Shown here one piece after another: positions 54,981 through 64,000 of a stretch of 64,000 nucleotides of DNA. How positions within the stretch are numbered: the stretch's first letter is position 1; every line of letters starts with the position of its first letter. This DNA comes from a virus. The notes under the pieces are model-generated. The model was not told where the DNA came from, searched no databases, and saw only the letters and a program-made list of their open reading frames with translations. The stretch lies in the IMG/VR virus record IMGVR_UViG_3300014202_001519; one strand, written 5' to 3'. The position numbers were made by a program, and so were the translations under genes.

Positions 54981-55470
54981 AATTCTCTCCTAAATTGAAT
55001 GAAGGCACAGCCTCCACAAACTTATCTCTGCTCAATTCATCCTTGAAACAATATTCACTGAATCCATAGTCATAACCCGTTTTACCTAGCCACACAATGG
55101 TCCAGGTGCCTTCATGCCCATGTTCCCCAGGATCACGGGTATGGTAGTCGTAATTATGAACTACACCATCCTTGGTGTAGGATTTTGGGATGGTATAAGG
55201 CTCAATCGCCAGGACTTTTGGACAGCCTGGATACTCAGAACAATGCTCCCCACAAACCTTACAATCCATTGGACCGAAAGTTTGCCAACACCAACGACAA
55301 GCAAAGTCATTGGTTGGATAGCAACCTTCTACCATGACGGAATATGGAAACTTTTTTAGAGTTTCCGATGCGTCATTCCACGGGTTTTTACCACTATTTG
55401 CTTCCATAAACTGTTCTATTGATGCTATTTGCATCTTTGTATAATCTTTCATTTTTCTCCTCGTTGCCAC
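54973..55470 (-). CDS. hypothetical protein
   Basis: KTGYDYGFSEY. Confidence 0.65.
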   Translation of the reverse strand: MATRRKMKDYTKMQIASIEQFMEANSGKNPWNDASETLKKFPYSVMVEGCYPTNDFACRWCWQTFGPMDCKVCGEHCSEYPGCPKVLAIEPYTIPKSYTKDGVVHNYDYHTRDPGEHGHEGTWTIVWLGKTGYDYGFSEYCFKDELSRDKFVEAVPSFNLGENYV

Positions 55471-55796
55471 TTGCTAAAAGCTGCTCTAAATTCTTTCTCA
55501 TCCATTTCCCCTGTAGCTCGTTTGTAATACAAACTATCCTTCACGGGGATTTCGTCAATGGACGATTTAACGTCTGACAAATCCAATCCTAATGAATTTG
55601 CCTCGTCCAATAGTTGTTTCAGTGTATACGAATGGCATAGAATCCATTCGTCGGTCTTGGAACCGCCAAGAGCATTGGCAAATTCCATTGCTCCATAACA
55701 ATTAGCGCATTTAAGGCTAATTGCCTTCTTCAAGGCTTCCTTAGAAATCGTGCGTTCCTTAACGATGGTCGTTTCTTGAATCTTTAGAATACTCAT
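55449..55796 (-). CDS. hypothetical protein coupled to pth2
   Basis: GGAGG SD; ATG overlaps pth2 TGA. Confidence 0.65.
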   Translation of the reverse strand: MSILKIQETTIVKERTISKEALKKAISLKCANCYGAMEFANALGGSKTDEWILCHSYTLKQLLDEANSLGLDLSDVKSSIDEIPVKDSLYYKRATGEMDEKEFRAAFSKWQRGEK

Positions 55797-56146
55797 GACA
55801 GTACCTCCTGAGTAGGCGCATTATCTCCCAGGCATCTATATGCGCGGAATAGATGCCGTTTCTCACCAAAAATAGGTTCGGTTGCTAAAGCGGTAGCTTC
55901 GCCGTTACGGTCAGGCTCGGTGAAAATCCGATACTGAACGCCAGCTTTGTCAAGCTTACGCGCGGAGTTATAGAGTTGTTGTTCGCCCTTGACACCAAGG
56001 ACAACAAGATGGGGATGCTCTAAGTCGTTATGCAGAAAGGATTTAGCGGATTCAATGCAAGCATGAGCAGATTGAACAACCTGCTGTGGAAAGGAAAGGT
56101 CTTTCCGAATGAAAATGTAAACGTAAGGCGTGTCCTAGTGAGTCAT
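55793..56146 (-). CDS. pth2: peptidyl-tRNA hydrolase 2-like protein with in-frame TAG at codon 4 (readthrough candidate)
   Basis: Manual translation MTH*DTPYVYIFIRKDLSFPQQVVQSAHACIE...HPHLVVLGV...FTEPDRNGEATALATEPI...RHLFRAYRCL...; AAGGAG SD at 56153-56158; TAG at 56135-56137. Confidence 0.8.
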
Positions 56147-56159
56147 TGTGTTCTCCTTA

Positions 56160-56291
56160 ATTAAGGTGCGTCGTGTTTTGGACAATAAGGAAATCCTGTT
56201 TCGCCACATGCGACACAGCAATTTTCATCCCTACAGTGTTCAACATGAGTGTTGAGTTGTTCAGCACTCATACCGATGCGTTGGTCTTCCA
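56160..56291 (-). CDS. small Zn-finger protein (about 43 aa)
   Basis: GTG start; ...CCVACGETGFPYCPKH; below ORF-track cutoff. Confidence 0.45.
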
Positions 56292-56316: not shown

Positions 56317-56460
56317 AAAAAATGAAGGTTTTTCGTATACTTGAGCTATTTATTGTGGCTGCGTAGGCGGGAAACCTTCAAACCGCCATACCTTTTCACC
56401 ACTGCTCAAATAAACGGTCCTGTGCGCTAGGCCAACACGGATGACTTCGGCCAGGTATCC
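56317..56460 (-). ncRNA. candidate structured RNA
   Basis: Own N16 promoter; nested stems and a 9-bp loop-tail complementarity. Confidence 0.35.
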
Positions 56461-56463
56461 ACT

Positions 56464-56491
56464 ACAATACGCCAAAATTTTTGTTTGTCAA
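56464..56491 (-). promoter_or_regulatory. sigma70-type promoter TTGACA-N16-TATTGT
   Basis: Heads the pth2 transcription unit. Confidence 0.6.
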
Positions 56492-63637: not shown

Positions 63638-63650
63638 ATAAACCTCCTAG

Positions 63651-63723
63651 TGAGAGCGGCGGGGATCGAACCCGCGACCAATAGATTAAAAGTCTATTGC
63701 TCTACCAACTGAGCTACGCTCCC
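63651..63723 (-). tRNA. tRNA-Lys (UUU), no encoded CCA
   Basis: GGGAGCG/CGCTCTC acceptor, GCTC/GAGC D-arm, ATAGA-CTTTTAA-TCTAT anticodon arm, GCGGG-TTCGATC-CCCGC T-arm. Confidence 0.95.
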
Positions 63724-63980: not shown

Positions 63981-64000
63981 TTCGCCACTTGGAAACCTAA

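What the first reader, a model, noticed from the sequence alone, without database searches (positions are those of the whole stretch)
55793..56158. Peptidyl-tRNA hydrolase (Pth2-like) gated by an amber codon at position 4: candidate readthrough sensor of termination failure
Seen: minus strand AAGGAG-N6-ATG ACT CAC TAG GAC ACG CCT TAC GTT..., followed by 113 uninterrupted codons with Pth2-type motifs (YIFIRKDL, QSAHA, LVVL.V, F.EPD, TALA..P). There is no in-frame ATG/GTG/TTG after the TAG, and the final TGA overlaps the next gene's ATG. TAG is an ordinary stop elsewhere here (ruvB-like, HNH, PTP, DUF2934), so this is not genome-wide recoding. Established: Pth recycles dropped-off peptidyl-tRNA; lambda bar-type minigenes cause peptidyl-tRNA drop-off; RF2 autoregulates through an early in-frame stop. 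Inference: by default only the tripeptide MTH is made. Pth2 would be produced only when UAG termination fails (RF1 depleted or inhibited, e.g. by host defence) or a suppressor tRNA appears, which is when peptidyl-tRNA rescue is needed. I cannot tell whether this has been described.
Basis: partly seen in the sequence, partly recalled or inferred. Interest (0 to 1): 0.9.

Follow-up and report, generated by a model that had tools for sequence, protein, structure and literature searches.

The report
Stop-codon-gated phage tRNA-hydrolase gene
A giant phage keeps a UAG stop as the fourth codon of a small peptidyl-tRNA-hydrolase-like gene, and about a hundred related phage stretches keep the same early stop together with their own UAG-reading tRNA, so the enzyme is most likely made only when that tRNA overrides the stop.

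Summary
On the minus strand, AAGGAG-N6-ATG ACT CAC TAG is followed in frame by 113 codons with a Pth2 fold, and that frame has no canonical start.

It is not an error or a decaying gene:
- An independent 99.5%-identical assembly carries the same TAG.
- dN/dS downstream is 0.06-0.2.
- 44 of 69 IMG/VR relatives and 28 of 31 metagenome relatives open the same way: a start, 0-6 codons, then TAG.
- So do the cultured phages BF, CBB, GAP32, RsoM2USA, ME3, Arash and XacN1.

Every gated gene on a long contig comes with a phage tRNA with anticodon CUA, often within 1 kb. One TGA-gated copy sits beside a tRNA-UCA. The base after TAG is a purine in 41 of 41 distinct contexts, which favours suppression.

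TAG remains a normal stop: it ends 13 of 98 window genes, and this is the only gated gene in the window and in the whole BF genome.

The best reading is a single gene gated by a suppressor tRNA. This window's own tRNA lies beyond its end and is inferred from synteny and an earlier scan note.

The scan has noted this design before on other DNA (55 notes, at least 44 genomes). I found no paper describing it.

The parts
56464..56491 (-). Promoter-like site (TTGACA, 16 nt, TATTGT) at the likely head of the transcription unit
   Evidence: Consensus scan, 10 of 12 matches. This is a pattern match only.
56161..56271 (-). Small Cys-rich ORF (36 aa from ATG 56271) directly upstream, ending in TAA 3 nt before the SD. 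It has no early stop.
   Evidence: Read from the sequence. Not studied further.
56153..56158 (-). Shine-Dalgarno AAGGAG, 6 nt before the ATG. It is placed for the ATG, and would be 15 nt from the TAG.
   Evidence: An SD at 5-9 nt before the mini-ORF start is seen in most gated relatives.
56135..56146 (-). Gate: ATG ACT CAC TAG, that is a start, two sense codons and an amber codon, followed by G (a purine)
   Evidence: Identical in an independent assembly and in LR756511. The same design is in 44 of 69 and 28 of 31 relatives.
55796..56134 (-). Pth2-like coding region, 113 codons, no canonical start inside
   Evidence: Pfam PF01981 30.9 bits. PDB profile hits to Pth2 chains. AF2 model pLDDT 91. 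Foldseek TM about 0.7 to archaeal Pth2 and human Bit1. dN/dS 0.11-0.14 against the nearest relatives.
55793..55795 (-). TGA stop, overlapping the ATG (55796-55794) of the next gene 55449-55796 (ATGA coupling)
63650..63723 (-). tRNA-Lys(UUU), the edge of the phage tRNA region and a synteny marker. In LR756511 the order is pth2-like, then tRNA-Lys(UUU), then tRNA-CUA 3 kb further on. That places this phage's suppressor tRNA just past the window end.
   Evidence: ARAGORN. Earlier scan note e1-5358391 puts an amber-suppressor tRNA 4098 nt beyond the window end. I could not read that DNA.

Best explanation
This is a gene gated by a suppressor tRNA.

Ribosomes start at the SD-led ATG. After two codons they meet UAG.
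- If release factor 1 wins, only Met-Thr-His is released and no enzyme is made.
- If the phage's own tRNA with anticodon CUA is present, processed and charged, it inserts a residue. Translation then continues into the 113-residue Pth2-fold protein.

The gate sits in the unstructured N-terminal tail, four residues before the first strand. So any inserted residue is tolerated and no truncated domain is ever produced.

The purine after UAG favours suppression over termination.

The result is an AND gate. The peptidyl-tRNA-hydrolase-like enzyme appears only when the phage's tRNA programme, and specifically its stop-codon-reading tRNA, is active. That is also when read-through, stalled ribosomes and dropped peptidyl-tRNA should rise.

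Shown:
- the anatomy of the gate;
- its conservation;
- purifying selection on the coding region;
- the Pth2 fold;
- co-occurrence with tRNA-CUA;
- uniqueness of the gate in the window and in the BF genome.

Inferred:
- that the tRNA is charged and decodes this UAG;
- which residue it inserts;
- that the protein hydrolyses peptidyl-tRNA;
- the biological purpose of the coupling;
- that this window's own phage carries the tRNA, which rests on synteny plus an unchecked scan note.
For: 1. Conservation. The same opening is found in these phages:
- LR756511, BF, RsoM2USA, CBB and GAP32;
- ME3 and Arash;
- XacN1, Xoo-sp13 and RAS14, where it precedes an HD-domain fusion;
- 44 of 69 IMG/VR loci and 28 of 31 metagenome loci.

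2. The gene is translated. dN/dS downstream of the TAG is 0.06-0.20 in 10 pairs.

3. The matching tRNA.
- A tRNA-CUA is present in BF, CBB, GAP32 and RsoM2USA, LR756511, and ME3 and Arash.
- It is reported for XacN1, where the authors found no target for it (PMC5852040).
- ARAGORN finds one on the same strand within 10 kb in 34 of 44 gated IMG/VR loci, often within 1 kb.
- Six more were found by eye or elsewhere on the contig.
- The 4 without one are short contigs or contig ends.
- Gated against normal-start loci: Fisher p = 0.0008.

4. Stop and anticodon vary together.
- L059/L161 opens ATG GAA TCG TGA and has a tRNA-UCA about 190-270 nt upstream.
- L167 has a TAG gate with a tRNA-UUA 383 nt upstream, and ochre suppressors read UAG as well.

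5. Context. The base after TAG is A (24) or G (17) in 41 of 41 distinct contexts. A purine at +4 raises amber suppression in E. coli (PMC6266110).

6. It is one gene, not recoding.
- TAG ends 13 of 98 window genes.
- TAG ends 18 of 503 BF genes.
- This is the only gate without a later start in either.

7. Fold.
Against: - The window itself holds no tRNA-CUA. I could not fetch the DNA past its end.
- Nothing shows that any of these tRNAs is charged or that full-length protein is made.
- Three relatives have a TAA gate with no ochre tRNA found (L093, L181, L182). Their contigs are incomplete.
- 8 of 20 relatives with a normal start still have a tRNA-CUA next door. So the link between the tRNA and this gene is not only the gate.
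- The stop-anticodon switch to TGA rests on one contig, where a GTG directly follows the TGA and could restart translation.
- In canonical Pth2, as I recall it from S. solfataricus, the catalytic Lys position is Gln here. Activity is therefore uncertain.
Confidence: 0.75

Rival explanations
1. Termination-failure sensor without a dedicated tRNA. The UAG is read through by host near-cognate tRNAs only when RF1 is depleted or inhibited, so the enzyme reports failing termination.
For: An early in-frame stop that senses termination capacity has a precedent in prfB (from my own knowledge, not tested here). RF1 must compete at this codon in any model. The stop is nearly always TAG, the RF1-only codon.
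Against: A cognate tRNA-CUA travels with the gated gene in every long contig checked. Gates with TGA and TAA exist, and those codons are read by RF2. A purine at +4 in 41 of 41 contexts fits tRNA decoding. Nothing in the window points to an RF1 inhibitor.
Confidence: 0.08
2. Mini-ORF coupling. The three-codon ORF ends at UAG and the ribosome restarts at a nearby non-canonical codon, so neither a tRNA nor read-through is needed.
For: There is no canonical start downstream. Termination-reinitiation at short ORFs is known in bacteria (from my own knowledge). In L059 a GTG follows the TGA directly.
Against: The codon after the stop is not a conserved start-like codon. It is ATT in 9 contexts, GTT in 7, AAC in 6, AAT in 3, GAC here, and others. 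Later positions are not conserved as near-cognate starts either. This model explains neither the near-exclusive use of TAG nor the linked tRNA-CUA.
Confidence: 0.07
3. Leaky throttle. The stop only keeps a possibly harmful enzyme at a very low constitutive level through basal read-through. The nearby tRNA-CUA serves other purposes, such as acting on host genes.
For: 8 of 20 normal-start relatives also sit beside a tRNA-CUA. So the pairing of tRNA and gene does not require the gate.
Against: A weak SD or a rare start codon would throttle expression more simply, yet the SDs here are strong. The gate is significantly enriched where the tRNA is present. The switch to TGA with a tRNA-UCA is not expected under this model.
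Confidence: 0.08
4. Sequencing error, recent nonsense mutation or pseudogene.
For: Gene callers skip or truncate the gene. There is no call in the JGI contig. BF and RsoM2USA have annotation gaps there, and CBB, GAP32 and Arash carry truncated CDSs.
Against: An independent assembly has the same TAG. The gate is kept at 30-65% protein identity. dN/dS is 0.06-0.2.
Confidence: 0.01

Closest known systems
Stop-codon-recoded phages with their own suppressor tRNAs (TAG read as an amino acid, 'code 15': crAss-like, Lak and others; bioRxiv 10.1101/2021.08.26.457843, PMC9523058)
   Same: A phage-encoded tRNA-CUA decodes in-frame UAG in phage genes while the host uses the standard code. It has been proposed as a way to time gene expression.
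   Different: In recoded phages, many genes, mostly late ones, carry many in-frame TAGs. Here there is one gene and one TAG, always within the first few codons. TAG is still used as a terminator (13 of 98 window genes).
bldA tRNA-Leu(UUA) and the UUA codon of adpA in Streptomyces (PMC10732093 listed; details from my own knowledge)
   Same: A single tRNA species gates translation of a specific target through one special codon.
   Different: That codon is a rare sense codon in a cellular developmental regulator. This one is a stop codon in a phage translation-repair enzyme.
prfB (RF2) autoregulation through an early in-frame UGA (from my own knowledge)
   Same: An early in-frame stop makes synthesis depend on the balance between termination and an alternative decoding event.
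   Different: prfB needs a +1 frameshift, and its product is the factor that reads the stop. Here the frame does not change, a tRNA is the competitor, and the product is not a release factor.
Lambda bar-type minigenes and host Pth (from my own knowledge)
   Same: An SD, a start, one to three codons and a stop. Both have a functional link to peptidyl-tRNA hydrolase.
   Different: bar minigenes stand alone and act by sequestering tRNA as peptidyl-tRNA. Here the mini-ORF is the in-frame head of the hydrolase-like gene itself.
Archaeal/eukaryotic peptidyl-tRNA hydrolase 2 (PF01981; PDB 2zv3, 3erj, 1wn2, 1xty, 1q7s), already noted in jumbo phages (PMC7824862)
   Same: The fold matches (TM about 0.7), as do the R-x-D-L and Q-x-x-H-A motifs. 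An acidic residue (E73) aligns with the D of the DAG motif.
   Different: This is a divergent phage subfamily with 13-27% identity. The Gly-Lys loop preceding the Q-x-x-H-A motif is shortened and lacks the Lys. Some members are fused behind an HD domain. No earlier paper that I found mentions the early stop.

Membership tests
PTH2 (Pfam PF01981) | Sequence match above the curated threshold | tested here: met
   30.9 bits against a cut-off of 23, residues 5-88. A profile of 41 relatives hits the PDB Pth2 chains 24bt_A (E 2e-6) and 2zv3_A (E 1.6e-4).
PTH2 (Pfam PF01981) | Pth2 alpha/beta fold | tested here: met
   AF2 model pLDDT 91.2, pTM 0.83. The top 10 Foldseek hits are all Pth2 or Bit1 chains, TM 0.67-0.72.
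PTH2 (Pfam PF01981) | Catalytic residues of canonical Pth2 (a Lys before the Q-x-x-H-A helix and the Asp of DAG, as I recall from work on S. solfataricus Pth2) | tested here: inconclusive
   In the HMMER alignment to 24bt_A, the invariant E73 aligns with the D of DAG. The Lys-bearing loop is two residues shorter and reads Gln. Family invariants are Y6, R10, D12, H24, L54 and E73.
PTH2 (Pfam PF01981) | Hydrolysis of peptidyl-tRNA | not testable with these tools
   Needs an enzyme assay or complementation of a pth(ts) strain.
Stop-codon-recoded phage (code 15) | Phage-encoded tRNA with anticodon CUA | tested here: inconclusive
   None in the window, and the DNA beyond it could not be reached. 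It is present in the closest relative in the same synteny and in all gated relatives on long contigs. A scan note reports it 4098 nt past the window end.
Stop-codon-recoded phage (code 15) | Many genes interrupted by in-frame TAG, with TAG largely abandoned as a terminator | tested here: not met
   The standard code gives 92% coding coverage. TAG ends 13 of 98 genes, and only one gene has an internal TAG gate. The same holds for the whole BF genome.
prfB-type autoregulatory recoding | The downstream ORF lies in the +1 frame behind a slippery site and an internal SD | tested here: not met
   The downstream ORF is in the same frame as the ATG.
bar-type minigene | SD plus a start, 1-3 codons and a stop | tested here: met
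   In relatives the mini-ORF is a start plus 0-6 codons, most often 1-2.
bar-type minigene | Stand-alone element with no in-frame coding continuation | tested here: not met
   113 conserved codons follow in frame, with dN/dS 0.1.
Pyrrolysine decoding | pylS/pylBCD genes and a tRNA-Pyl architecture | not tested
   ARAGORN's 'tRNA-Pyl' label reflects only the CUA anticodon. The linked tRNAs have ordinary 73-77-nt cloverleaf lengths and CU-CUA-AA loops.

The most novel reading that the evidence does not exclude
The suppressor tRNAs carried by standard-code large phages may exist chiefly to open this one gene. On this reading, the tRNA, the early stop and the Pth2-like enzyme form a self-contained two-part translational switch. 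The switch reads the state of the translation apparatus: whether the tRNA is intact and charged, set against release-factor activity. That state could reflect host attack on tRNAs or the load of phage tRNA expression. A peptidyl-tRNA-recycling enzyme would be turned on only then.
Probability: 0.35. Interest if true: 0.9.

Novelty: new variant of a known kind. Interest (0 to 1): 0.8.

Why it matters
- It gives a concrete natural target to the "orphan" suppressor tRNAs of phages that use the standard code. The XacN1 authors looked for such a target and found none (PMC5852040).
- It would be a natural one-codon, one-tRNA translational switch.
- It explains why this gene is missing or truncated in GenBank records of well-known jumbo phages.
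- It can be tested directly in cultured systems: Salmonella phage Arash, Serratia phage BF, Acinetobacter phage ME3, Pectobacterium phage CBB and Xanthomonas phage XacN1.
- It ties stop-codon suppression to peptidyl-tRNA recycling. That hints at how phages manage the cost of overriding stop codons.

Tried and rejected
Steps that led nowhere:
- Reaching the DNA past the window end to see the phage's own tRNA-CUA. Exact-match scans of viral and metagenome contigs found nothing. Two protein look-ups returned only a 68-kb sister contig that ends inside the window. No whole genome is held.
A narrower alignment, A3, worked for metagenomes.
- The amino-acid identity of the suppressor tRNAs. Similarity to other phage tRNAs gave mixed, weak best matches (Arg, Lys, Thr, Met and others) and diverse acceptor stems. 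This stays unresolved.
- Simple anticodon-loop patterns missed the tRNA-CUA of two huge phages. An Rfam tRNA search followed by ARAGORN found them.
- The three TAA-gated loci. No tRNA-UUA was found, but the contigs are incomplete or not held.
- Megablast of the locus against GenBank phages found no match.

Readings rejected:
- sequencing error or pseudogene;
- genome-wide recoding;
- a conserved downstream non-canonical start;
- a second gated gene in this window.

No complex prediction was run.

Full report
**What is in the window**

On the minus strand the sequence reads AAGGAG (56158-56153), a six-base spacer, then ATG ACT CAC TAG (56146-56135). After that come 113 sense codons down to a TGA at 55795-55793, which overlaps the ATG of the next gene. 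The 113-codon frame contains no ATG, GTG or TTG. It matches Pfam PTH2 at 30.9 bits against a cut-off of 23.

**The TAG is real and the gene is alive**

A second assembly of a near-identical phage exists as JGI contig L033. It differs from the window at 62 of 12,130 aligned bases and carries exactly the same ATG ACT CAC TAG. Codons downstream of the TAG are under purifying selection:
- dN/dS is 0.11-0.14 against the nearest relatives;
- dN/dS is 0.06-0.20 in eight other pairs of gated genes.

**The protein**

A profile of 41 relatives hits solved Pth2 chains by sequence. An AlphaFold model has pLDDT 91. Its ten best Foldseek matches are all archaeal Pth2 or human Bit1, with TM 0.67-0.72.

The family keeps R-x-D-L, Q-x-x-H-A and an invariant Glu that aligns with the Asp of the canonical DAG motif. 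The Lys-bearing loop of canonical Pth2 is shortened. So the fold is established but the activity is inferred.

The TAG lies four residues before the first β-strand, in a tail with no predicted structure.

**The early stop is a family trait**

A tblastn search against GenBank phages found 37 records, nearly all jumbo phages. Their start regions read as follows:

| Phage | Opening |
|---|---|
| LR756511 | ATG ACT CAC TAG |
| Serratia BF | ATG ACG CAC TAG |
| CBB, GAP32 | ATG GCA CAA TAG |
| RsoM2USA | ATG TTG TAG |
| Acinetobacter ME3 | ATG ACT TAG |
| Salmonella Arash | ATG CTG TAG |
| XacN1, RAS14 (HD-domain fusions) | ATG AAG TAG |
| Xoo-sp13 (HD-domain fusion) | ATG AAG AAG TAG |

Only the RaK2/K64-1 group has a plain start.

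In IMG/VR, 44 of 69 loci have a start, 0-6 codons and a TAG, with no canonical start before the conserved core. Four more have the TAG followed by a later ATG. One has TAA, and one has TGA. An independent metagenome sample gave 28 TAG gates, 2 TAA gates and 1 TGA gate among 31 loci.

Gene callers and annotators miss or truncate the gene.

**The matching tRNA**

ARAGORN finds a tRNA with anticodon CUA in these genomes:
- BF, CBB, GAP32 and RsoM2USA;
- LR756511;
- ME3 and Arash, where GenBank labels the Arash tRNA as Phe.

The XacN1 paper reports two such tRNAs and states that no target could be found.

Among the 44 gated IMG/VR loci:
- 34 have a tRNA-CUA on the same strand within 10 kb, often 100-700 nt from the gene;
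- six more were recovered by reading the sequence or by searching the rest of the contig;
- the remaining four are short contigs or contig ends.

Gated loci carry the tRNA more often than normal-start loci (37 of 44 against 8 of 20, p = 0.0008).

In LR756511 the order is pth2-like, tRNA-Lys(UUU), tRNA-CUA. The window has the pth2-like gene and a tRNA-Lys(UUU) at 63650-63723 in the same order and orientation. The suppressor should therefore lie just beyond base 64000. I could not read that DNA.

**Signs that the tRNA reads this codon**

- The base after TAG is A or G in all 41 distinct contexts. A purine at +4 is the classic context for efficient amber suppression (PMC6266110).
- One lineage has switched to ATG GAA TCG TGA and has a tRNA-UCA about 190-270 nt upstream.
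- One TAG gate sits behind a tRNA-UUA, which can also read UAG.
- The SD is always positioned for the mini-ORF's ATG.
- The mini-ORF peptide is not conserved, as expected for a disposable N-terminal tail.

**Not a change of genetic code**

TAG ends 13 of 98 ORF-predicted genes in the window and 18 of 503 in phage BF. In both, this is the only frame with the gate and no later start.

**Interpretation**

The best-supported model is a single gene gated by a suppressor tRNA. RF1 ends translation after three residues unless the phage's tRNA-CUA decodes the UAG.

The purpose is inferred. The model couples a peptidyl-tRNA-recycling enzyme to the presence of a stop-codon-reading tRNA, or more broadly to the phage tRNA programme.

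Some normal-start relatives also sit beside a tRNA-CUA. This suggests the enzyme and the tRNA are functionally tied beyond the gate itself.

RF1 competition is part of it, but nothing requires RF1 failure.

**Novelty**

PTH2 in jumbo phages is known (PMC7824862), and so are phage suppressor tRNAs. In five full-text searches and the papers I opened I found no description of the early stop or of this pairing.

The scan itself has noted the same design before on other DNA: 55 notes in at least 44 genomes. It was also noted from the tRNA side in this genome. Those notes agree with what I derived independently here.

Noticed in passing
L005, L006, L007 (Xoo-sp13, XacN1, RAS14) 1-120; L088, L039, L064: In Xanthomonas and Stenotrophomonas jumbo phages and some metagenome phages, the Pth2-like domain is fused behind an HD-motif domain of about 170 residues. 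This long form also opens SD-ATG-AAG-(AAG)-TAG. The annotated start of XacN1 ORF364 lies 4 codons after that TAG. So XacN1's two 'targetless' suppressor tRNAs appear to have a target.
   Followed up: partly
L002 1483-1820 (BF), L003 1413-1856 (RsoM2USA), L008/L009 (CBB, GAP32), L160 (Arash): GenBank records leave this gene unannotated or start it far downstream. In Arash only the last 50 codons are annotated as 'peptidyl-tRNA hydrolase'. The tRNA that GenBank calls tRNA-Phe at L160 6310-6384 has anticodon CUA by ARAGORN.
   Followed up: yes
L059 9983-10000 and 9728-9804 (same contig as L161); L093, L181, L182: Gates built on other stop codons. One contig has a TGA gate with a tRNA-UCA next to it. 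Three loci have TAA gates for which no ochre tRNA was found on the incomplete contigs.
   Followed up: partly
L147 about 11466 and 11553 (G001); L151 about 203 and L154 about 240 (G002): Two complete huge phages (527 and 572 kb) each carry two different suppressor tRNAs: CUA plus UUA side by side in one, CUA plus UCA in the other. The G002 tRNA-CUA corresponds to a 93-nt Rfam tRNA match, the size of a tRNA with a long variable arm.
   Followed up: no
window 56317-56491, minus strand: A promoter-like TTGACA-16-TATTGT lies at 56491-56464. It is followed by a long-range hairpin, TGAAGGTTT (56380-56372) pairing with AAACCTTCA (56331-56323), and then a T run. All of this lies upstream of a 36-aa Cys-rich ORF and the gated gene, and could be a leader or attenuator. 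Another first-reader note describes it.
   Followed up: no
L059 7953-8029 and 8472-8547; L088 11339-11414 and 13141-13216; L100 8616-8692: ARAGORN calls several tRNAs with leucine anticodons (UAG, UAA, CAA) that are only about 76 nt long. They therefore lack the long variable arm of bacterial tRNA-Leu.
   Followed up: no
L052 about 2301-2306; L163, L164: In some relatives the mini-ORF is reduced to ATG TAG, a start directly followed by the stop. The suppressor tRNA would then have to decode the very first elongation codon.
   Followed up: no
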